NCBI RefSeq assembly: GCF_009834535.1 | Contig: NC_045696.1 | Location: 13,580,001-13,644,000, forward strand | Direction of reading: 5' to 3' | Source of the DNA: Camelus ferus | Lineage: Eukaryota | Length of the DNA stretch: 64,000 nt | Part shown: piece after piece, positions 4,691 to 56,698 of the stretch | Numbering within the stretch: the stretch's first letter is position 1 | How the letters are laid out: the number at the start of each line of letters is the position of its first letter | Program-made: the position numbers and the translations under genes | Notes under the pieces: generated by a model | What the model was told of the DNA's origin: nothing | What the model saw: the letters and a program-made list of their open reading frames with translations, nothing else | The model's database searches: none

Positions 4691-5791
4691 AGGGTGCTAA
4701 ATGATGGTGGGTCCCTGAGAAAGTGTGTTGCCCCTGCTCCATCCCTAGCAGGCATTGCAGGACCCTTAGATGAAGTTAAGATTCCAAGGATAGAAAATGT
4801 CCCCTCCCTTGCTTCTGGGGTGGAACCCAGGAAGGCAGCAAACTTTATGGAGAACCCTGAGCCAGTGTGGTTCTGGAGTGACAGACCAGAGATGCCTGGG
4901 CACATCTGAGTGAAGGGGTTCAAGCCAGCCTCAGGATCCCTGAGCACTTTAGCACAGCACTGAAAGGAAAAGACATTCTCCTCAGGTCTCAAAGTACACA
5001 AATAGATGCTGGGGATGGGCAGCCTTGTAGTCAGGGGGACACAGGATAGGCAGAGACATATAGGGATGTAGAGTGTCTCTGTAGAGGCCAACAGCAATAG
5101 ATAATGATGATCTGGGACTAGTTTTTACTCATTCTGCCATTACAGCACTGATACACTGTATATGACCCCTAAACAGAGATTAAATCCTGAAGGAAGTGAT
5201 TATTAATTATCCCAAATTAGATGAGATTATATTTTAACCAGCCCAGTGGAATGGGGACTCCAGATACAGTTACACTGAGTTATACTAAAAAGTCACAACT
5301 TTGCATACATTTATGCTTTAAGGTTCACATCTGATATTTGCTGATATGGGGTGGGGACATGGAGATACATTCCAGAGCCAATATAAATGTCTTCTTTCCC
5401 TGTGACTCTCTTCTCCAGCTACTCAAATCAGTAAACTTTTTTTTTTTTTGGATCTGTTTTCTTTCAAAAAAATTGTTTAACCCTGGAGGCAATCAGGGTT
5501 TTAGAAGCCAAGATTTTGTCTACTTTGATCCCTGTTTTCTTTACCACGTGAGATAATAGATTCTATGTGGAGGAAAGGACAAAGAAGTAGGAGGAATATA
5601 TACACAGGGAACAAAAAACATCTAAGGCTGTGATATATGTATATAATATGATGTCACTATGTGCCCTTGTAAGCCTTTTAGCAGGACAATAACTGGAAGG
5701 ATGGAACCCAAGATATAACTTCCTCAAAACACGAGGCACTATCACTGGACCCAGGGAAGGTGGTAACTCCAACAGAGGTGGAGCCTGAGAG

Positions 5792-6011: not shown

Positions 6012-6384
6012 AGTCTCAGAGAGAGTGAGATGGGTTCAGAAGCGTTAAGAAACTTGGTCTTTTGCTCAAACAAATCAGCGAGATTATTAATGATCGTAAA
6101 TTTGATGAGATTATATTTAAATCAGAGAGAAATTTTTCACTCTGTTGTCTTTTCTCTTTCTTTCTCCCTCTCTCCTTCCCTTCCTTTGACTTCTAAAGGC
6201 CTCTGCTATCAGACCCAGTGACCTATCAGTTCCTTCTTTGCTTGGCTTATTATGATATAGATGACCTCATAGATTTTTCTACATTCTAGGCCTTGAAGCA
6301 AGGCAAAAGGCCACTTGCAGGTGGATAAGGGTTTTAACTACAACTGCTACTACTACTACAAAAACATAAATAGGGAAAAAAGAT

Positions 6385-6785: not shown

Positions 6786-7178
6786 AGGCTTAGACGGTCC
6801 CAGCATGGAGAAGAGTCCGGAGTAGGGAGTGCATGCAAAGGGAATTTTTTTTTTTAACATTTTTTATTGATTTATAATCATTTTACAATGTTGTGTCAAA
6901 TTCCAGTGTTCAGCACAATTTTTCAGTCATTCATGGACATATATACACTCATTGTCACATTTTTTTCTCTGTGAGTTATCATAACATTTTGTGTGTATTT
7001 CCCTGTGCTATACAATGTAATCTTGTTTATCTATTCTACAATTTTGAAATCCCAGTCTATCCCTTCCCACCTTCCACCCCTCTGGCAACCACAAGTCTGT
7101 ATTCTCTGTCTATGAGTCTACTTTTGTCCTGTATTTACGCTTTGTTTTTGTTTGTTTGTTTGTTTTTGTTTGTGTTTT

Positions 7179-10100
7179 TTAGATTCCACATATGAGCGAT
7201 CTCATATGGTATTTTTCTTTCTCTTTCTGGCTTACTTCACTTAGAATGACAGTCTCCAGGAGCATCCACGTTGCTGCAAATGGAATTATGTTGTCGGTTT
7301 TTATGGCTGAGTAGTATTCCATTGTATAAATATACCACCTCTTCTTTATCCAGTCACCTGTTGATGGACATTTAGGCTGTTTCCATGTTTTGGCTATTGT
7401 AAATAGTGCTGCTATGAACATTGGGGTGCAGGTGTCATCCTGAAATAGGGTCCCTTCTGGATACAAGCCCAGGAGTGGGATTCCTGGGTCATATGGTAAG
7501 TGTATTCCTAGTCTTTTGAGGAATCTCCGCACTGTTTTCCATAGTGGCTGCACCAAACTGCATTCCCACCAGCAGTGTAGGAGGGTTCCCCTTTCTCCAC
7601 AGCCTCTCCAGCATTTGTCATTTGTGGATTTTTGAATGACGGCCATTCTGACTGGTGTGAGGTGATACCTCACTGTAGTTTTGATTTGCATTTCTCTGAT
7701 AATTAGTGATATTGAGCATTTTTTCATGTGCCTTTTGATCACTTGTATTGTCTTCCTTGGAGAATTGCTTGTTTAGGTCTTCTGCCCATTTTTGGATTGG
7801 GTTGTTAATTTTTTTCTTATTGAGTCATATGAGCTGCTTATATATTCTGGAGATCAAGCCTTTGTTGGTTTAATTTGCAAAAATTTTCTCCCATTCCGTA
7901 GGTTGTCTTCTTGTTTTACTTCTGGTTTCCTTTGCTGTGCAGAAGCTTGTAAGTTTCATTAGGTCCCATTTGTTTATTCTTGCTTTTATTTCTTCTAGGA
8001 GAAAATTTTTTAAATGTATGTCAGATAATGTTTTGCCTATGTTTTCCTCTAGGAAGTTTATTGTATCTTGGCTTATGTTTAAGTCTTTGATCCATTTTGA
8101 GTTGATTTTTGTGTATGGTATAAGGGAGTGTTCTAGCTTTATTGTTTTATATGCTGCTGTCCAGTTTTCCCAACATCATTTGCTGAAAAGACTGCCTTTA
8201 TTCCATTGTATATTCTTGCCTCCTTTGTCGAAGATTAGTTGACCAAAAGTTTGTGGGTTCATTTCTGGGCTCTCTATTCTGTTCCATTGGTCTATATGTC
8301 TGTTTTTGTAGCCATACCATGCTGTCTTGATGAATGTAGCTCTATAGTATTGTCTGAAGTCTGGGAGAGTTATTCCTCCAACCTCTTTCTTTCTCTTCAG
8401 TAATGCTTTGGCAATTCTAGGTCTTTGATGGTTCCATATAAATTTTATTATGATTTGTTCTAGTTCTGTGAAATATGTCCTGGCTAATTTGATAGGGATT
8501 GCATTAAATCTGTAGATTGCCTTGGGCAGTGTGACCATTTTAACAATATTGATTCTTGCAATCCAAGAGCATGGAATATCTTTTCATTTTTTAAAGTCTT
8601 CTTTAATTTCCTTCATCAATGGTTTATAGTTTTCTGTGTATAATTCTTTCACCTCCTTGGTTAGATTTATTCCCAGATATTTTATTATTTTGGGTGCTAT
8701 TTTAAAGGGGATTGTTTCTTTACTTTCTTTTTCTGTTGATTCATTGTTAGTGTAAAGAAATGCCACTGATTTTTGAATGTTAATCTTATAACCTGCTACC
8801 TTGCTGAATTCTTCATTCAGCTCTAGTAGTTTTTGTGTGGACCTTTTAGGGTTTTCTATATATATAGTAACATGTAATTGGCATATAGTGCCACTTTTAC
8901 CTCTTCTTTTCCAATTTGGATCCCTTTTATGTCTCTCTCTTGACTGATGGCTGTGGCTAGGACTTCCAAGACTATGTTGAATAGGAGTGGTGATAGTGGG
9001 CATCCTTGTCTTGTACCAGGTTTTAGTGGGAAGCTTTTGAGTTTTTCACCATTGAGTACTATGCTGGCTGTAGGTTTGTCATATATAGCTTTTATTATGT
9101 TGAGATATGATCCCTCTATACTCACTTTGGTGAGAGTTTTTATCATAAATGGGTGTTGAATTTTATCAAATGCTTTTTCTGCATCGATTGAGATGATCAT
9201 GTGGCTTTTGTCCTTTCTCTTGTTGATGTGATGTATTACATTGATTGATTTGCGTATGTTGAAACAGCCTCTTGTCCCTGGGATGAACCCCACTTGGTCA
9301 TGATGTATAATCTTTTTTATGTGTTGTTGGATTCTATTTGCTAAAATTTTGGTGAGGATTTTGGCGTCTATGTTCATCAGTGATATTGACCTATAATTCT
9401 CTTTTTTGGTAGTGTCTTTGCCTGGTTTTGGTATCAGGGTGATGGTGGCTTCATAGAATGAGTTTGGGAGTATTCCCTCCTTTTCAATTGTCTGGAAGAG
9501 TTTGAGAAGGACTGGTATGAGTTCTTCTTTGTATGTTTGGTAGAATTCCCCGGTGAAGCCATCCGGTCCTGGACTTTTATTTGTAGGGAGGTTTTTAATT
9601 GCTATTTCTATTTCCTTTCTAGTGATCGGATTGTTCAAGTGTTCAGATTCTTCTTGATTCAGTCTTGGTGGACAGTATGTTTCCAGAAACTTGTCCATCT
9701 CCTCTAGGTTATCCAGTTTGGTTCCATATAGTTTTTCATAATATTCTCGTATGGTATTCTGTATTTCTATTTTGTTTGTTTTAATTTCTCCATTTTCCTT
9801 TCTTATTTTGCTAATTTGTGCTCTCTCTTTTTTCTTCTTTGTGAGTTTGGCCAGAGGTTTGTTGATTTTATTTACTTTTTCAAAAAACCAGCTTTTGGTT
9901 TGGTTGATTTTTTCTGTGGTCTTGTTAATCTCTATTGTATTTAATTTCTCTGATCTTTATTATTTCCTTCCTTCTGCTGCTTTTTGGGGCTTTTTGGGGC
10001 TTTTTGTTCTTCTTTTTCTAATTCATTCAGGTGGTGGGTTAACTTGTTTATCTGAGATTGTTATTCTTTTTTGAGGAAGGCCTGTATCACTATAAACTTC

Positions 10101-10975
10101 CCTCTTAGCACTGCCTTTGCTGTGTCCCATAGGTTTTGAGTGGTTGTGCTTTCATTATCATTTGTCTCAAGGTATTTTTTAATTTCAGCTTTGATTTCCT
10201 CATTGACCCATTGTTTTTTCAATAACATATTGTTTAATCTCCATGCTTTCCTTTTTTTCTCCTTTGTTGCTCTGTTGTTGATTTCCAGTTTCATGGCATT
10301 GTGGTCGGTAAAGATGCTTGAGATAATTTCTATCTTCTTAAAATTGTTGAGGTTTCTTTTGTGCCCAAGTACATGATCGATCCTGGAAAATGTTCCATGT
10401 GCACTTGAAAAGAATGTATATCCTATTTTTGGGGGGTGTAATGCTCTGAAAATATCCACCAAATCTAGTTTTTCTATTGTAGTATTTAATTTCTCTGTTG
10501 CCTTGTTTATTTTCTCTCTGGAAGATCTGTGTAGTGATGTTAATGCAGTGTTAAAATCTCCAACTATGATTGTATTCCTATCAATATCCCCCTTTATCTC
10601 TGTTAGTACTTGTTTTATGTATTTAGGTCCTCCTATATTTGGTGCATATATATTAACAAGTGTAATATCCTCATCTTGTATCACTCCTTTAATCATTATA
10701 AAATGTCCTTCTTTATCTTTCTTTATGGCCTTTGTTTTAAAGTCTATTTTGTCTGAAATCAGTACTGCAACACCTGCTTTTTTTGCATGGAATATCTTTT
10801 TCCATCCTTTCACTCTCAATCTATATGTGTCCTTCTCCCTAAAGTGGGTCTCTTGTATGCAGCCTATTGAAGGTTCTTGCTTTATTATCCATTCTGCCAC
10901 TCTATGTCTTTTGACTGGAGCATTTAGTCCATTAACATTTACAGTAATTAATGATAGATGTGTGTTTATTGCCAT
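7179..10975 (-). pseudogene. L1 ORF2 (APE endonuclease + reverse transcriptase), broken into at least 5 ORF pieces
   Basis: TVNVNGLN...IQETH...VGDFN...SRIDH...TDH (EN); KSPGPDGF...[14 protein letters not shown]...IDAEKAFD...[13 protein letters not shown] (RT); [18 protein letters not shown] (C-terminal Cys motif); frameshifts between pieces. Confidence 0.96.
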
Positions 10976-11407
10976 TTTGAACTTATCTTTGCAGTTGAAT
11001 TGGTATATCCTCTTTGTTCCTTTCTTCTTCCTTTTGTGGTTTGGTAATTTTCCTTTGCATTATCATGGATTTTATTTAATTTTTGTGACTCCCTTGTAAG
11101 TTTTTGGCTTGTGGTTACCCTTTTTTGTAAATCTATTAGCCCATTACTATAACTGTTTTTATTAAACTGATAGTAACATGATCTGAAACCCATCCTACTG
11201 TTAAAAAAAATTTAAAAAAGAAAGAAAAAAGATATTCTATATTTCCCTGCCTCCCTCTCCCACTCTCAGTGATTTGTATGTCTTCTTTTATAATTTCGTG
11301 TTTACTTTATTTGTAATTCATGAATTATCACCTTTCCAGTTGTGAGTTTCTCATTTCTGTAGCATTCTGCTGCTTTTCTATTTAGAATAAACCTTTCAAT
11401 ATTTCTT

Positions 11408-12090
11408 TTAGCATGGGTTTAGTGTTGCTAAACTCCTGCAACTTTTTTTTTTTTTGTCTGTGAAACTCTTTATTTCTCCTTCTATCCTAAAGGATAGCCT
11501 TGCTGGATAAAGTATTCTAGGCTGCATCTTTTTTTCATTCAGGGCTTTGACTATATCTTGCCACTCCCTTCTGGCCTGTAGTGTTTGTGTAGAGAAATCA
11601 GCTGAGAGCCTTATGGGGGTTCCCTTGTAACTTACTCTTTGCTTTTCTCTTGCTGCCTTTAGAATCATTTCTTTATCCTTGTCTCTGGCCATCTTTATTA
11701 TGATATGTCTTGGTGTGGGTCTATTTGGGTTCTTCCTGTTTGGGACCCTCTGAGCTTCCTGTACTTGGATATCTGATACCTTCTTTAAGTTTGGGAAGTT
11801 TTCAGTCATGATTTCTTCAAAAACCTTTTCAATCCCCTTTGATTTTTCTTCCCCTTCTGGGACCCCTATTATGCGAAGATTGGGATGCTTTATATTATTC
11901 CATAGGTCCCTTATGCTATTTTCATTATTTTTTATTTGCTTCTCTTGTAGTTCTTCTGAATGGGTGCTTTCTATTGCTCTGTCTTCTAGATCACTAATTC
12001 GTTCCTCTGCATTATCTAGTCGGCTTTGCACAGCTATTAGATCATTCCTCATCTCTATCAATGAGTTTACCCATTCTACTTGGCTCTTCT
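11408..12090 (-). pseudogene. L1 ORF1 (coiled coil/RRM/CTD), N-terminus missing, frameshift near the C-terminus
   Basis: RLDNAEERISDLED...NLRIIGVPEGEE...PRHIIIKM...IRLSADFS...ARREW...PRILYPARLSF. Confidence 0.95.
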
Positions 12091-27175: not shown

Positions 27176-27285
27176 CCCATTACTCTGGTTTAGAGTACTC
27201 CAAAGTGGAGGATGCCCATTTCTGCTCCAGAAGCTCTGCTAGTGAAGGGAATCTCCTTGTGAAAAATCTTCCAACTTATAGAAAA
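27176..27285 (+). repeat. Left arm of 110 bp inverted repeat
   Basis: Ungapped manual alignment to the reverse complement of 28544-28653 gives 89/110 identity. Confidence 0.95.
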
Positions 27286-27544
27286 AGAAGAGGATGTGGT
27301 GGAGGTCTGACCAGGAAGCATTTACAAAGAACTGCAGTTTCTCTGCAGTTTGAATTGTTAGAATCTATAGAAAGACTTAGGGATTTAGCTTATTTACAAT
27401 GGGGAGAAGACACTGGAAAAATGGGTAATAAGAAACATGGAGAAAAATCGTCATAAAAAGTTGCAGAGAAAAAAAAAAGAACAGTTGCAGAAGTGCTAAG
27501 CACAACTAGATAGATGTAGTTTAATATAATAACAGGGCTTTTTT

Positions 27545-27730
27545 TTTTTTAAACACTTGCTGTATGCCAGACACTCTTCTAAGGCACTTACACATGTTGA
27601 TGTACTCACTGATAGCAACCCTGCAAAGGAGGAACAGAGGGTCAAGAAAGAAGAGATACTTGCCCAAGTCCATTTGCTGAAATCTAGCTCAGGACTGCGC
27701 TCTCAGCCATCAACCACTACTGCATTTTGT
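27545..27730 (-). mobile_element. MIR SINE
   Basis: CACTTGCTGTATGCCAGACACTCTTCTAAGGCACTTACA...AGGAACAGAGG...ACTTGCCCAAGTC. Confidence 0.75.
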
Positions 27731-27849
27731 GGACACAGTCCTCTGCAAAGCTGGCTTGTCAAATGCAGAAATAAGTTTAAGAGACTAGGCATCCGTGAAT
27801 TATTTCATCCAGTATCACCAAGCCATCCTGTGCTTAGGACGATGTTGTC

Positions 27850-28278
27850 TTTTTTTTTAATTGAAGTCTAGTCAGTTTATACTGTTGTGTCAATTTCTGG
27901 TGTACAGCGTAGTGTTTCAGTCATACATACACATACACATATTCATTTTCATATTCTTTTTCATTATGGGTTACTACAGATATTGAATTGGTTCCCTGTG
28001 CTATACAGTATAAACTTGTTGTTTATCTGTTTTACATGTAGTAGTTAGTATCTGCCAATCTCAATCTCCCAATTTATCCCTTCCCAATCCCTTTCCCCCT
28101 GGTAACCATAGTTTGTTTTCTGTGTCTGTAAATCTGTTTCTGTTTTGTAAATAGTTTCATTTGTGTCTTTTTTTTTTAAGGTTCCACATGCGAGTGATAT
28201 CATATGACATTTTTCTTTCTCTTTCTGGCTTACTTCACTTAGAATGAGGATATCTATGTCCATTCATGTTGCTGCAAA
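27850..28278 (-). mobile_element. L1 3' UTR fragment with poly(A)
   Basis: T-run, then AATTGAAGTCTAGTCAGTTTA... through CTGGCTTACTTCACTTAGAATG; same family as 29281-30100. Confidence 0.92.
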
Positions 28279-28543
28279 GAAGCACAGTATTTTTAATTTT
28301 GATGAAATCTTTTTTTAATTAAGATATAGCTTATTTATAATGTTATATTACTTTAAAGTGTACAACATAGTGATTCAAAATCTGTTAGAACTTTTTGTGA
28401 CTTGTATTCAGTATATGTACTCAAACTTTACATCCAGCTAGTAGAAGACGGGTTTTATGCCTTCTAGCTTTCTTCTTCATCAGTAAAAGCATATCTTCTC
28501 TGACCCCTCGTTTGCCATGTTTCCACTTGGCTGGAATCCTGTA

Positions 28544-28653
28544 TTTTCCATAAGTTGGCAGATTTTTCACCAGAAGAGTCTTTTCTCCCGCAGAGCTCCT
28601 GGAGTTGAAATGCGAGTCCTCCACTTCAGGATGCTCTAAACCAGAGTAATGGG
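28544..28653 (-). repeat. Right arm of 110 bp inverted repeat
   Basis: Reverse complement CCCATTACTCTGGTTTAGAGCATCCTGAAGTGGAGGAC...CCAACTTATGGAAAA matches 27176-27285. Confidence 0.95.
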
Positions 28654-29171: not shown

Positions 29172-29280
29172 AGGTGTGTGGGAGTATAGCTCAGTGGTAA
29201 AGTGTATGTTTAGCATGCATGAGGTCCTGGATTCAATCTCTGGTACCTCCATTAAAAAAATAAAATTAAAAAGAAAAAAC
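29172..29280 (+). mobile_element. tRNA(Ala)-derived camelid SINE (vic-1-like)
   Basis: GTATAGCTCAGTGGTA (A box)...TTAGCATGCATGAGGTCCTGGATTCAATCTCTGGTACCTCCA (B box) plus A-rich tail. Confidence 0.9.
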
Positions 29281-30100
29281 ATAAATGCTGGAGAGGGTGT
29301 GGAGAACAGGGAACTCTCTTACTCTGTTGGTGGGAACATAGTTTGGTGCAGCCATTATGGAAAACAGTGTGGAGATTCCTTAAAAAATGAAAAATAGACT
29401 TACTATACAATCCAGCAATCCCACTCCTGGGCATATATCCAGAGGGAACTCTAATTCGACAAGATACATGCACCCAAATGTTCATAGCAGCACTACTTAC
29501 TTGGTTGTACCAAGACATGAAAACAGCCTAAATGTCCATCAACAGATCAACAGATGATTGGATAAAGAAGTTGTGGTACATTTATACAATGGAATAATAC
29601 TCAGCCACTAAGAAGAATAAAATAATGCCATTTGTAGCAACATGGGTAGATCTGGAGATTGTTGTTCTAAGTGAAGTTAAGCCAGAAAGAGAAAGAAAAA
29701 TGTCATATGATATCACACACATGTGGAATCTTAAAATAAAAAAAAAAAGGAGACACAAATAAATCTATTTACAAAACAGAAAAAGACTTACAGACATAGA
29801 AAATAAACTTATGGTTACCAGGGGGAAAGGGATTGGGAAGGGATAAGTTGGGAGTCCGAGACTTGCAGATACTAACTACTATATGTAAAATAGATAAACA
29901 ACAAGTTTATACTGTATAGCACAGGGAACTATATTCAATATCTTGTAGTAACCTGTAATGAAAAAGAATATGAAAATGCATATATGTATGTGTATGTATG
30001 ACTGAAACATACTGTACACCAGAACTTGACACATTATAAACTGACTAGACTTCAATTTTAAAAAATCAACAACAACAACAAAGAAAAAAAGTTTAAAAAA
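29281..30100 (+). mobile_element. L1 3' end (ORF2 C-terminus + 3' UTR + A-rich tail)
   Basis: ATAAATGCTGGAGAGGGTGTGGAGAA...CCAGCAATCCCACTCCTGGGCATATATCC...ACTGACTAGACTTCAAT plus tail. Confidence 0.94.
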
Positions 30101-42428: not shown

Positions 42429-45400
42429 TGGGACAGGATCCAAATTTTTGTAGAAATTAACATTTAATTAATCTGATGCACTCTCTTTAAGAAAAATAAT
42501 GCAAAATTATGAGTAAAATTAAATGCTCATTTAGAATAATAAAATAAACAAATTACAAAGTTAAAAAGCTAATAGATATCAAAAAATATAACAAATCCTT
42601 CCCCCAAAGAAAACACAGTATCTTTTGTTCATCGACTTCTCAATTCACTTGTTTAACACATTTTCCTACGTAATTTGGCTGCTCCACTTTTTGAGTTCCT
42701 CTTCACATGACAATGACCTTGGCATATCATTTATTCTGGGAGAATAGGCAGATAATTCTGTCTTTAGCATGATTGCTTGAAATTTGTTTTATTACTGGTA
42801 ATTTGGAACATTTTATTTCACTTTCATAATTTGTTATTGGTAACATCATTTAAATGTTTTAAGTTTTTGTCACTTTTGCAAGAAGTTCTATTAGATTTTC
42901 TTCTTCCCTGAGCTGTATGCTTTCAGGACATTTCAAATGTTCTTGTGCATTGACTGGTATTTTGAATTGATGATATTCATGAAACAGCCTTCACCAAGGT
43001 CCTCATTGCAGTGTCACTGATATTGTCAATATTTCATGTTAAAATCAGCCGTCTTTGTTAACTGCCTTATCAAACAAATTAAGAGCTACTCATTACTTCT
43101 GTTTAAAACTTTCCATTATCTTAATTTCTTCTTAGATATGATCTAAACATTTTTTGCTCAGTTTTTTCATTATATCAGTGTAATTCATATTAATTGCATC
43201 ACTCATCTTAGCTTTTTTACTTTATATTTATTTTATTTCCATTTTCCCCAATGTTTTAATAAACAAATTTAAAGAAGACAAAAGGAAATACTCTTAATAT
43301 GCATCCAAATCTGGAGTCTATGATTTCCCACTTATTATATCAAAAGATTCCAAAATAACTTTTTAAATGTAAATAATGTATTTAAGCTTTATCAATTTTT
43401 GAATGAACTTTTGCATCTTGGTTTTTTTCAAGCTTCTTTTAAGTATTCAAAACATATTTTAGAGTCTTAAGTTTTGCAACAGCTTCATAAAGAGTAGACC
43501 ATCTTATTACATTTATATTTTTAAAAAATGCAAAAAGCTGGCAAGGATTTTAAAATACTCCATCAAGAGACGGATCTGTAGAGAAAACACATCAAGTTTA
43601 CAAAATAGTGAGATAGTCAACGACTTCAGGCACTGTAGGAACAGGTCTTTTCCAAAGATTATGACCGATAAATTTTAAAATGTTGTTCAGTGGTTGGTTA
43701 TAATTGTCCAGGATTAGTTTCATTTTGTTGAATAACCTCACAGATACATGGCCTTAAGTTGATGAAAAAGTTAAAATCACTTACAGGGTTTTCTGCTATA
43801 GCAGAAATACCCAATAATTAACAATAATCTGTGTTTATAACATCTAATGTAGAATTTACCATGTTGCTATGGTATCTGATGTCTGGTTTACTTTATTTGC
43901 AACTTCATTTTATAGAGATTTCCAATTATTTTTATTAATTCTTTAGGGCAAAAAAGTTGCATCTGCCCATTTTGATATCTTCCCACATGCTTGTGCAAAA
44001 ATGAATCAATTCAGTAATTAATTTGAGGTTATCCATGAAGTTTCCATTATTTTAGGATTGCAAATTTTCATAGCAATCTCTGAAGGATCATTCCCTCTCA
44101 CTTTAGAAATGTCATAACTGCAACTATTCAATTAAAAGTGAAACTCTTCTTTCTTATGTCTAAGATATTGTCCTGGTGCATTTTTATTATCTGCATGAAA
44201 TCCAAGTAAACAGCCTACTTAATCTTTCTGAAATCGTCTTGAGAGCTTTCATCCAGAGAATCTGAGTTATTAAGTAGCATTAGTCTTGCTAAGAGTCGTT
44301 TCTAAATGAAGTAATGCATGCAACTTGCAGCCTTGGATTCAAGTAGCCAGGATCATATATATATTTGCTCACTTTGAATTTTCTTAATTCTTTATTTGAC
44401 CATTACAAATTCTGTTTGATTCACTGTAGATACTATTGAGATCTAGATTTTGAAAAATATTTGATTTCCTTTAAACAGTAGAGTTAACTGTACAGGAATC
44501 ATACCACAATAAAGGTGTTAAAAATAATAAAAATTTTAAAGTAAATGGAAAAAAATTACAACAAGAACATTTCATTTTAAAAAAAATGTTGAATACAATT
44601 ATTTTTCATTGTAACAGGCCATACATAATAAAAGATCATGGTACTTATTGAAGTCAGTGGATTCACCAGAATGAAAGGACTGTTCTCTTGAATGCTCTAA
44701 TGTCTGATGTTCATTCAAACGGACTTATTTTATAACAATTTTATCTTCCTTCCAGTTTGTTTGTTTCCTATTGATAGTGTCCAGATTCTCCTGATCTTTT
44801 CTATTTCTTCTTGTCATTTTCATTATCTGTATTTTCTAGATTACTGTAATTCTTATCCTCATGATTTTTACCAGTTTTTACTGTCACTACTTATGCATTA
44901 AAGATATTTGATATGTAGAAGTTTTAGTCTCCTTTCTTTCAAGTTGTGTTTTTGGCTTCCAGGAGGATGTTTTCTTCCTGAAATATTTGAATTTGGATTA
45001 AAAAAATCAATAATCCTGAAAATAATCTGAAATTTAAACAGACACAAAAGCAATTTAAATAATTAAAAATTGTCGCTATTGGGATACACAGTTATGTACT
45101 GACATTACTCCTATATAATTTACACAGCTTATTATTTAAATGGTAAAAGTTTTGTGACTCTAACATTTATTTCTATAGCCAGATTTTTTGTGTGTGTCAG
45201 TAGCAAATTTTTATGCTGTTCCACCAGGGACTACCAGATGTTGTCAGGACAAGATGCATTAGAGATTCTAAAACACAATTCAAAGTTTTAGGATGAATAA
45301 AATATGTTCATTTCTGTTCAAACGAGAAAAACAGAGTGTGGTGCATTTGTAATTGTACATGCTACCGTGTTTGTTGAGTATAATTCTGACAGGACGGAAC

Positions 45401-46022
45401 TTCTATTTTGAGTAGCTGTCAATGAGAAACAAACCCTACGCTTACAGTCTCATATGTTATTCACAGACCACCTTCCAATTCTGCACATTTCACAACCTTG
45501 TTTCTCCTCCAGTTACCCCTTTAGTATCTGGGATGTGTGTCATTGGACATATTAACATCACAAAATAACTTGCAGTCCTGGTTCTGGTTTTCAGGTAGGG
45601 ATGCTAAGAGAATCAGCACAGCGGGCAGCTGGAATATTTGCAGGAATCATTCCTACTCTGGGTTCATTAACAATAATTTAACTGTACATGTAGGTGACTG
45701 CAAGCCATAAAAACATATCCCACTGACCCAAACTAAACATATTCTCAAATGAACATCTTTCTGTAGACTAACTGTGGTGACATTGATTGCTATTCCAATG
45801 TCACCAAACACCAGGGGGAAGCATGATAGAGCAGAGTTTGAATGGAAATATTTAGCCGGCTTACGGGATTGCAGTTAACATATCTTACTTTTGTAAATTA
45901 CACAAAGACCTGTGACCAAGAGAGTCCATTGAGAGGGCTTCTTCCAGAGCCTGGCTGGAATTAGCGTCTGTGAAGGACCCTGCGACTTAAGCTTCACTGG
46001 CTTCATGGAATATCTACCTCTG
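42429..46022 (-). mobile_element. Near-full-length Zaphod-like hAT-Tip100 DNA transposon fossil (transposase on minus strand)
   Basis: Termini GGACAGGATCC...CTCTTTAAGAAAA and GACTTAAGCTTCACTGGCTTCA...TCTACCTCTG; degenerate 8 bp TSD CTCAGAAT/TTCAAAAT; minus-strand translation of ~42730-42890 gives hATC-like MMLPITNYESEIKCSKLPVIK...NYLPIL. Confidence 0.82.
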
Positions 46023-46150
46023 TTCAAAATCCTTCAACTTTCATCTGAGTGATTGTATTGATGATGTCTCATAAAACAACGGGGACCAACTCTAGTCAGA
46101 CAGATCAGAGGAACCTGCGGTGACCACCGGTTTAAGGAATAAAGACGCTT

Positions 46151-46250
46151 NNNNNNNNNNNNNNNNNNNNNNNNNNNNNNNNNNNNNNNNNNNNNNNNNN
46201 NNNNNNNNNNNNNNNNNNNNNNNNNNNNNNNNNNNNNNNNNNNNNNNNNN
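46151..46250. other. Assembly gap (100 N)
   Basis: Seen directly; the round number suggests a placeholder of unknown size. Confidence 0.99.
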
Positions 46251-46524
46251 CTTGGGAAATGAATCTAAGAACTTTCCTCTGTGAATGTCAACGTGAGTTG
46301 ACTTTCTTAATTCATTTGAGGGTCATCTTCCCAGTTCCTGAAAACTCCTTTTCACAATCAGATGTCACTTCAGAATAAACTTGAATGTTGCTCCCATGAC
46401 ATTGGATGACAATGATCAGTTCGTTTTGATACAGCATTTAATTATGATGCAAACCTCTTTAGGAAATTGGGCACAGGGCTCTAAAAATAATTACAAAATC
46501 CACTCACTTTCTGAGAACATTTAG

Positions 46525-51001: not shown

Positions 51002-51544
51002 ACGACCAACTCCATGCTCAGATGTCAGGGGAGGATGCTCTTGAAGTGTTGCTTCTTTTGCTTCTCCAGCAAGGCGGGCTGGACCAATTTCTCCTGCAGC
51101 AACACTGCATGTAGCACCTGCTGAATGACCACATGAAGACCTGGTTCTCTGCATCTGAGAAGCAGAAACTTCCTGCTGTCCAGCATTGTCTTAAGCCCCT
51201 GACTTTTCATCTCAAGTCCTGTGCAAATTGGAAAGATGGATTTGGCTCCTAGCTTCAGCTCCTTGCCTCCTTTGCCAGTCTCCACTACACTTGTTGGCCA
51301 CGTCCTGCCAGGCCCCACGGACCCACATTACTGGCCACTGCTCATCAGTGACAACTGGCTGCAGCTTCCACTCTGGGACTAAATCTTGAATCTGTAACTA
51401 AGGTCTAGTTCTTCTTAAGGACAGTGGTTCTCACCTACATTACCCCAAAGCTGGGAAGCCCTGTCCTACACACCACTACTCTGGTAGATTTGAAAGAGAA
51501 AGGGATTTGGGATCATCCATCTGGATGTGCATCTGGACTTGACC

Positions 51545-56611: not shown

Positions 56612-56698
56612 GCTTTTAACTGGAGATACTGGGAGTTGAACCCTGGCCCTCGTGCATGCTAGACATGTGTTCCACCGCTGAACCATACCCTCATCCCC
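56612..56698 (-). mobile_element. tRNA(Ala)-derived camelid SINE (vic-1-like), older copy
   Basis: Reverse complement GGGGATGAGGGTATGGTTCAGCGGTGG...TAGCATGCACGAGGGCCAGGGTTCAACTCCCAGTATCTCCA. Confidence 0.85.

What the first reader, a model, noticed from the sequence alone, without database searches (positions are those of the whole stretch)
27176..28653. Unexplained gap-free 110 bp inverted repeat pair ~1.26 kb apart
Seen: 27176-27285 aligns without indels to the reverse complement of 28544-28653 (21 mismatches, ~81%), and the outer 20 nt are identical. I do not recognise the arms as any repeat family. The spacer has since gained a MIR and two L1 ends, so the pair is probably old. In one frame both arms are stop-free: HYSGLEYSKVEDAHFCSRSSASEGNLLVKNLPTYRK vs HYSGLEHPEVEDSHFNSRSSAGEKTLLVKNLPTYGK. 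Mismatches fall 8/3/10 on codon positions 1/2/3, only mildly codon-like. G-U-compatible changes are split evenly (6 plus, 7 minus), giving no strand bias. Inference: long TIRs of an uncharacterised ancient DNA transposon, a conserved long-range RNA duplex (ADAR substrate, splicing loop), or an inverted duplicate of a small exon or regulatory module.
Basis: partly seen in the sequence, partly recalled or inferred. Interest (0 to 1): 0.7.

Follow-up and report, generated by a model that had tools for sequence, protein, structure and literature searches.

The report
Old inverted copy of nearby DNA
This is an ordinary copying scar: about 120 bases of non-coding DNA were copied backwards about a kilobase away in an ancestor of camels and ruminants, and the two copies have been drifting apart since, with no sign of being transposon ends, an exon or a conserved RNA hairpin.

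Summary
The inverted pair is real: 27176-27285 matches the reverse complement of 28544-28653 at 89 of 110 bases without gaps (E=2e-22). The features that looked special are chance-level: no gaps (P=0.12), the 20 identical outer bases (P=0.20), the codon pattern (P=0.18), and the G-U split of 6 versus 7. Protein searches found 6 unnamed ORF clusters over homologous mammal-like DNA. All 6 continue into one arm's own flank (5 left, 1 right); none is an arm-only dispersed copy. These homologues show that 6 of the 9 amino-acid-changing differences arose on one camel arm, with none compensated on the other. They also show that the left arm lost 15 bases at its inner end, so the unit was at least 119 bp. 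Arms are not significantly more conserved than flanks (75/107 vs 138/216, p=0.32). There is no target-site duplication. Best reading: a repair- or template-switch-mediated proximal duplication (Pace et al. 2009), older than the camel-ruminant split and decaying neutrally. Genome-wide copy number, transcription and editing were not tested directly.

The parts
27176..27285 (+). Left arm of the inverted duplicate (110 bp retained)
   Evidence: homologous DNA with the same flanks in 5 unnamed ORF clusters (P0001, P0002, P0003, P0022, P0023)
28544..28653 (-). Right arm (reverse complement of the left arm, 89/110 identical)
   Evidence: homologous DNA with its own flanks in cluster P0004
28535..28543 (-). 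Further 9 bp of the original duplicated unit, kept on the right arm only
   Evidence: Left-arm homologues carry three more residues that match the right arm (YRI in P0001/P0006/P0012, YKI in the ruminant-like clusters). Inferred from translations.
27280..27291 (+). Site of a 15-nt (five-codon) deletion in the window's left arm, probably slippage between two repeated RK-coding hexamers; it sets the present inner boundary
   Evidence: five-residue gap against P0001, P0006, P0012, and the same net gap against P0002, P0003, P0018, P0022, P0023; the slippage mechanism is inferred
27286..28543 (.). Spacer, 1258 bp; no inverted homology beyond shuffles
   Evidence: shuffle P=0.40 and 0.72 inner, 0.41 outer
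27536..27725 (.). MIR-like remnant, probably older than the duplication
   Evidence: label recalled; 60-61% to two other such pieces in the window
27851..28278 (-). L1 3' end, younger than the duplication; forms its own, much stronger inverted pair with 29631-30065
   Evidence: 87% over 441 bp; duplex -596 vs -138 kcal/mol for the arm pair; L1 identity
28310..28377 (-). Second short L1-like 3' end
   Evidence: 72% to 27852-27919

Best explanation
A one-off proximal duplication in inverted orientation. In the germ line of an ancestor of camels and ruminants, a broken or stalled DNA end annealed to the opposite strand less than a kilobase away (about 0.7 kb before the L1 pieces inserted; my estimate). 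It copied about 120 bases and rejoined its own chromosome (synthesis-dependent strand annealing or a replication template switch). The two copies have since mutated independently, the left one lost 15 bases, and L1 pieces inserted between them. It does nothing as a pair. SHOWN: two linked copies, no TSD or poly(A) tail, homologues of each arm with its own flanks, one-arm uncompensated changes, arm conservation close to that of the flanks. INFERRED: the repair or template-switch mechanism, the age, and neutrality. UNRESOLVED: which arm is the donor. The right arm is the weak favourite because its only homologue is more diverged (19/35 residues) than the arms are from each other (27/36).
For: Only two copies in 64 kb (nhmmer next best E=0.75); two independent copies would fall this close with P=0.04. 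A profile search of 1.84 billion proteins gave 5 hits: 4 over homologous mammal-like DNA and 1 bacterial SH3-repeat protein that is noise. Word searches of 5.8 billion proteins gave 1 of 12 and 5 of 5746 candidates. All 6 distinct clusters run into one arm's own flank. Single-copy loci are therefore detectable this way, yet no third context appeared. Of 9 codons that differ in amino acid between the camel arms, 6 resolve as changes on one arm (left: codons 7, 13, 22; right: 16, 24, 35) and 3 are unresolved. In 0 of the 27 other codons do both camel arms share a residue absent from all five homologues shown. Arm vs flank identity is 75/107 vs 138/216 pooled over three homologue groups, p=0.32. 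The transition share, 13/21, fits a neutral 2:1 ratio (p=0.65). Size and distance match published proximal repair-mediated duplications (median 147 bp, peak distance about 1.2 kb, none of 39 inspected with a poly(A) tail; PMC2671141).
Against: No genome-wide DNA search was possible. Single-copy status rests on ORF translations in one reading frame and on gene callers happening to call them. No outgroup with an empty site was seen, so junction microhomology, filler or deletion, the defining marks of repair, are untested. Arm identity is higher than flank identity in 7 of 9 comparisons (none significant; the homologues were found with the arm as query, and the ruminant-like arm counts are affected by a frameshift), so weak constraint is not excluded. 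Left and right homologues cannot be paired by species, so covariation was tested only on the camel branch and only at amino-acid resolution. Pace et al. give no orientation counts in the parts I read (one opposite-orientation example).
Confidence: 0.78

Rival explanations
1. The pair arose as above, but is or was kept as a long-range RNA duplex (ADAR substrate or splicing loop) in an unannotated transcript, or as a duplicated cis-regulatory module under weak constraint.
For: If transcribed, the arms pair in the predicted structure on both strands (duplex -138 and -143 kcal/mol). Both arms have survived since before the camel-ruminant split. Arm identity is slightly above flank identity (70% vs 64%).
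Against: Any 81% inverted repeat folds this way. There are no compensated changes among 6 resolvable ones, 8 transversions, a 15-nt deletion and no strand bias. The overlapping L1 pair is four times more stable. I saw no coding exon in the window (25 ORFs, best Pfam E=0.002, below cut-off; shorter ORFs not scanned).
Confidence: 0.08
2. The arms are the scars of a small inversion: one template-switch event inverted the spacer and duplicated the 120-bp piece at both ends (four-point type 1-3-4-2 / 3-1-2-4).
For: This event type exists and made up 23% of 794 high-confidence short events in the human-chimp comparison (PMC5453318, passage). It gives the same anatomy, with no TSD.
Against: It predicts outgroups with a swapped arrangement (outer flank of one arm joined through the arm to the inner flank of the other). 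None of 6 clusters shows that, though all may postdate the event. The events in that paper's passages are much shorter.
Confidence: 0.07
3. Long terminal inverted repeats of a low-copy, non-autonomous DNA transposon (MULE/Ricksha-like with captured DNA, or hAT-like).
For: TIR-like orientation. The right arm is preceded on its own strand by CAGGGGG, which resembles hAT termini (recalled). The 8-bp outer flanks at that offset match 4/8.
Against: The left arm lacks that terminus, and its homologues keep the window's version. No TSD at any offset (best 6/9 and 5/8). No TTAA at the CCC start, as piggyBac would need. No transposase hit in the spacer ORFs. No dispersed copy.
Confidence: 0.04
4. Two independent, oppositely oriented insertions of a short dispersed repeat that the first reader did not recognise.
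For: Oppositely oriented repeat pairs are common in this window. No repeat library was available to exclude it.
Against: No third copy in 64 kb, P=0.04 for such closeness, and no arm-only hit in the protein libraries.
Confidence: 0.03

Closest known systems
Repair-mediated proximal duplications (RDs; Pace, Sen, Batzer and Feschotte 2009, PMC2671141; read parts 1-2 of 8, term passages, and the chr21 rows of Table S1)
   Same: Two copies, about 120 bp (published median 147, maximum 619), about 1.3 kb apart (824 of 1,136 within 5 kb, peak near 1.2 kb), no poly(A/T) tail. Table S1 lists 12 such proximal events on human chr21 alone. The paper reports them in non-primate mammals too.
   Different: Theirs were found as insertions inside annotated transposons and checked against empty sites; here no empty site was available and neither arm is known to interrupt a transposon. 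This one is older (19% diverged; the 12 chr21 rows are 4-12% and primate-restricted). The table has no orientation column.
Short-range template switch, four-point model types 1-4-3-2 / 3-2-1-4 (Loytynoja and Goldman 2017, PMC5453318; passages only)
   Same: One event copies a nearby stretch in reverse complement and leaves an inverted repeat flanked by unrelated sequence.
   Different: The events in the passages read are tens of bases long with close switch points; this one is about 120 bp at about 0.7-1.3 kb.
Intergenic inverted duplicates and non-repetitive dsRNA predictions (Chen et al. 2017, PMC5398296, part 1 of 6 and passages; dsRNAscan, PMC11838218, passages and supplement PDF search)
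   Same: Belongs to the same broad, very large class of non-repetitive inverted duplicates able to fold if transcribed (about half a million predicted in human, 4,597 edited).
   Different: Only about 1,500 of 5.1 million predicted human dsRNAs met their conservation cut-off; nothing measured here puts this pair among them. Their Table S7 was not available to me.

Membership tests
Repair-mediated proximal duplication (Pace 2009) | Donor and acceptor within 5 kb, length 50 to about 620 bp | tested here: met
   110 bp (at least 119 originally), 1258 bp apart
Repair-mediated proximal duplication (Pace 2009) | Exactly one other copy in the genome | tested here: inconclusive
   Two copies in the window; 6 of 6 homologous ORF clusters belong to one of the two loci; no whole genome held
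Repair-mediated proximal duplication (Pace 2009) | No poly(A/T) tail and no retrotransposition-type TSD | tested here: met
   Junction context and TSD scan; the purine run after the left arm is what remains after the 15-nt deletion
Repair-mediated proximal duplication (Pace 2009) | Microhomology, filler or small deletion against an empty orthologous site | not testable with these tools
   No outgroup DNA obtained (searches found none)
DNA transposon TIRs (hAT, MULE, piggyBac, Tc1/mariner) | Target-site duplication (8 bp, 9-11 bp, TTAA or TA) | tested here: not met
   Offsets -3 to +12, lengths 2-5 and 8-11: best 5/8, 6/9, 6/10; the only exact matches are the dinucleotides TG and AA
DNA transposon TIRs (hAT, MULE, piggyBac, Tc1/mariner) | Dispersed copies in unrelated flanks | tested here: not met
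   0 of 6 clusters arm-only; indirect, one reading frame
DNA transposon TIRs (hAT, MULE, piggyBac, Tc1/mariner) | Transposase remnant between the TIRs | tested here: not met
   7 ORFs over the arms and spacer: no Pfam hit better than E=0.1; shorter ORFs not scanned; non-autonomous elements need not have one
Conserved long-range RNA duplex / ADAR substrate | Arms can pair in a transcript | tested here: met
   Predicted on both strands; trivial for any such repeat
Conserved long-range RNA duplex / ADAR substrate | Compensatory or pair-preserving change | tested here: not met
   0 of 6 resolvable changes compensated; 8 of 21 mismatches break pairing on both strands; G-U 6 vs 7; camel branch only
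Conserved long-range RNA duplex / ADAR substrate | Arms more conserved than flanks | tested here: inconclusive
   75/107 vs 138/216, p=0.32; amino-acid proxy, three homologue groups
Conserved long-range RNA duplex / ADAR substrate | Transcription across both arms | tested here: inconclusive
Conserved long-range RNA duplex / ADAR substrate | A-to-I editing clusters | not tested
   No read-level data obtained
Duplicated coding exon | Synonymous excess and splice sites bounding the arm | tested here: not met
   6 of 15 differing codons synonymous vs 3.9 expected, P=0.18; best donor-like site 5-6 of 9 consensus matches; frameshifts inside the arm in ruminant-like homologues
Two copies of a known interspersed repeat | Both arms annotate as a Dfam/Repbase family | not testable with these tools
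   No repeat library available; Rfam found nothing over the arms

The most novel reading that the evidence does not exclude
The duplication was co-opted: both arms are under weak purifying selection across laurasiatherians, either as a long-range duplex in an unannotated nuclear lncRNA of this gene-poor region or as a pair of duplicated enhancer modules. It would then show a repair scar turned into a structural or regulatory element.
Probability: 0.07. Interest if true: 0.5.

Novelty: new member of a known kind. Interest (0 to 1): 0.1.

Why it matters
It matters little in itself: mammalian genomes carry many such short proximal duplicates. The useful result is negative and reusable: a gap-free, 80% identical inverted pair of about 110 bp is what an old neutral duplication looks like, and an old SINE in the spacer does not date the arms. 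If the novel case held, it would be an example of a DNA-repair scar recruited as an RNA structure or enhancer pair.

Tried and rejected
Rfam: only two tRNA-like SINE heads, nothing over the arms. An exact 18-mer from the arms gave 1 locus in viral contigs and 7 in metagenome contigs; all 8 match only the seed plus at most a few bases and are chance. Peptide-based locus searches: 0 of 60 stretches in viral contigs and 0 of 74 in prokaryote genomes confirmed. Read-level depth, copy number and editing were not obtained, so those questions stay open. Inward and outward extension of the arms at DNA level: no better than shuffles. An 8-bp hAT-like TSD at offset 8 was considered and rejected: 4/8 match, and homologues keep both flanks in their present, different states. 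A small exon on the other strand was considered and rejected: its shared donor-like site matches 5 of 9 consensus positions and misses both -1G and +5G. L1-mediated templated copying was considered: neither arm abuts an L1 end (nearest is 166 bp away). P0005, a bacterial SH3-repeat amidase, was dropped from the homologue count as noise. Earlier-findings look-ups by sequence, near, words and relatives returned nothing. A literature search for the locus (N6AMT1, ADAMTS5, gene desert, inverted repeat, camel; at least 3 of 5 terms) returned 2 unrelated plant papers; one search found nothing on it either among the 20 of 64 listed. The one supplement PDF of the dsRNAscan preprint mentions only the SON locus on chr21; its Table S7 was not held and could bear on the human orthologue.

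Full report
Observation. The window is repeat-rich mammalian DNA (37% GC, CpG observed/expected 0.20; tRNA-like SINE heads; a large L1). Earlier notes of this scan call the genome a camel and place the window about 0.77 Mb beyond CCT8 on the chromosome that also carries PCNT, DSCAM and KCNE1/2 (AI notes, not checked here). From recalled human chromosome 21 gene order, that is the gene-poor stretch towards ADAMTS5. I saw no coding exon (25 ORFs scanned, best Pfam E=0.002 and below cut-off; shorter ORFs not scanned). The inverted pair is as described: 27176-27285 against the reverse complement of 28544-28653, 89 of 110 identical, no gaps, E=1.9e-22, K2P distance 0.22.

The striking features are chance-level. 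Other paralogous pairs in the window have 108 gaps per 1049 mismatches, so a gap-free run with 21 mismatches has P=0.12. A 20-base identical run has P=0.20. It is the only fully stop-free frame, but two frames on the other strand are open for 31 codons in both arms. Mismatches are 13 transitions and 8 transversions, compatible with a neutral 2:1 ratio (p=0.65), and G-U-compatible changes split 6 to 7. The arms do not extend inward or outward better than shuffles, and no third copy lies in the window (next nhmmer hit E=0.75).

Homologues. No whole genome was held, and DNA scans of viral, metagenome and prokaryote collections gave only chance seeds. The informative route was indirect: gene callers have called spurious ORFs on mammalian DNA in public assemblies. 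A profile of the two arm-spanning ORFs against 1.84 billion proteins gave 5 hits: one bacterial SH3-repeat protein, dropped as noise, and four ORFs over homologous DNA. Two word-based searches of 5.8 billion proteins gave 1 of 12 and 5 of 5746 candidates, for 6 distinct clusters in all. None of their listed members carries a name. Five continue into the left arm's own flanks and one into the right arm's. P0003, P0022 and P0023 end in peptides resembling translated ruminant SINEs (recalled, no call), so I call that group ruminant-like. Since each single locus is visible this way, a dispersed family should have given arm-only hits in other flanks; there were 0 of 6. The caveat is that this covers one reading frame and depends on ORF calling.

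What the homologues show. (1) Left-arm homologues carry five residues missing from the window, and three of them match the right arm, so the unit was at least 119 bp and the window's left arm lost 15 nt at its inner end. (2) Of 9 codons that differ in amino acid between the window's arms, 6 resolve as changes on one arm only (left 7, 13, 22; right 16, 24, 35) and 3 are unresolved. None is mirrored on the other arm, and in none of the other 27 codons do both arms share a residue absent from all five homologues tabulated. There is thus no sign of compensation or of gene conversion on the camel branch, and the arms were much more alike when camel and these lineages split. (3) Arm identity is 75/107 against 138/216 for flanks, pooled over three homologue groups (p=0.32). 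It is higher in the arm in 7 of 9 single comparisons, none significant; the arm was the search query and a frameshift affects the ruminant-like counts. Weak constraint is not excluded; strong constraint is unlikely. (4) By simulation, flank identities of about 70% and 60% correspond to about 15% and 21% DNA difference, similar to the 19% between the arms. The duplication is therefore about as old as, or slightly older than, the camel-ruminant split (inference).

Order of events. The MIR-like piece in the spacer is about 40% diverged from other such pieces, twice the arm-arm distance, so it probably predates the duplication. The main L1 piece is 87% identical to a neighbour and is younger. That L1 piece and its inverted neighbour at 29631-30065 form a crossing pair four times more stable than the arm pair (-596 vs -138 kcal/mol), which shows how ordinary foldable inverted pairs are here.

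Rivals. TIRs: no TSD at any offset tested, no transposase hit, no dispersed copies. The hAT-like start beside the right arm (recalled motif) is absent from the left arm and from its homologues. RNA duplex: it folds if transcribed, but so does any such repeat. Read-level expression and editing remain untested. Exon: no credible donor site, and frameshifts in homologues. Inversion scar: possible, but no swapped arrangement among 6 clusters.

Comparison with what is known. Pace et al. 2009 (PMC2671141; parts 1-2 of 8, passages, chr21 rows of Table S1) describe 824 human duplications with the donor within 5 kb, median 147 bp, peak distance near 1.2 kb. All 39 proximal cases they inspected lacked poly(A/T) tails and bore marks of synthesis-dependent strand annealing; 12 proximal rows lie on chr21, all primate-restricted. 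This pair fits in size, spacing and lack of tail, but the defining junction marks need an empty site that I could not obtain, so it works like an RD and membership is likely but not proven. The four-point template-switch model (PMC5453318, passages) gives the same anatomy at shorter range. Non-repetitive inverted duplicates are very numerous and rarely conserved (PMC5398296, part 1 of 6 and passages; PMC11838218, passages; its Table S7 was not available). I found no paper on this locus.

Verdict. A real but ordinary old inverted proximal duplication: confidence 0.78, plus 0.07 for the closely related inversion-scar variant. Interest 0.1. The most novel reading not excluded, weak co-option as an RNA duplex or enhancer pair, has probability about 0.07.

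Noticed in passing
window 27851-28278 and 29631-30065: Two L1 3' ends in inverted orientation, 87% identical over 441 bp and 1.35 kb apart. The predicted duplex (-596 kcal/mol) crosses the arm pair.
   Followed up: partly
window 27825-27835 and 28280-28290: An 11-base inverted match (10/11) sits on either side of the main L1 piece, which has no evident TSD. It could be a small templated junction or chance; seen by eye after the fact.
   Followed up: no
window about 6860-12090 (- strand): Near full-length, frameshifted L1 with Pfam hits for ORF1, endonuclease and reverse transcriptase.
   Followed up: partly
window 5198-5241 and 6082-6125: A 44-bp direct duplicate, 86% identical and 884 bp apart (E=3e-7): probably another short proximal duplication, in direct orientation.
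   Followed up: no
window about 27457-27480: About 24 bp present in the window but absent from homologue P0001 (8-codon gap); looks like a local A-rich tandem duplication.
   Followed up: partly
window 29180-29251 and 56621-56692: Rfam tRNA matches followed by A-rich tails: tRNA-derived SINEs, not tRNA genes (SINE label recalled).
   Followed up: no
window about 42440-46030: Long AT-rich stretch that resembles a decayed hAT-type DNA transposon (recalled resemblance, not tested).
   Followed up: no
window 51025-51327 (- strand): 100-codon stop-to-stop frame in a GC-richer patch, with no Pfam hit; possibly a decayed retrocopy.
   Followed up: partly
window 46152-46251: Assembly gap of 100 N.
   Followed up: no
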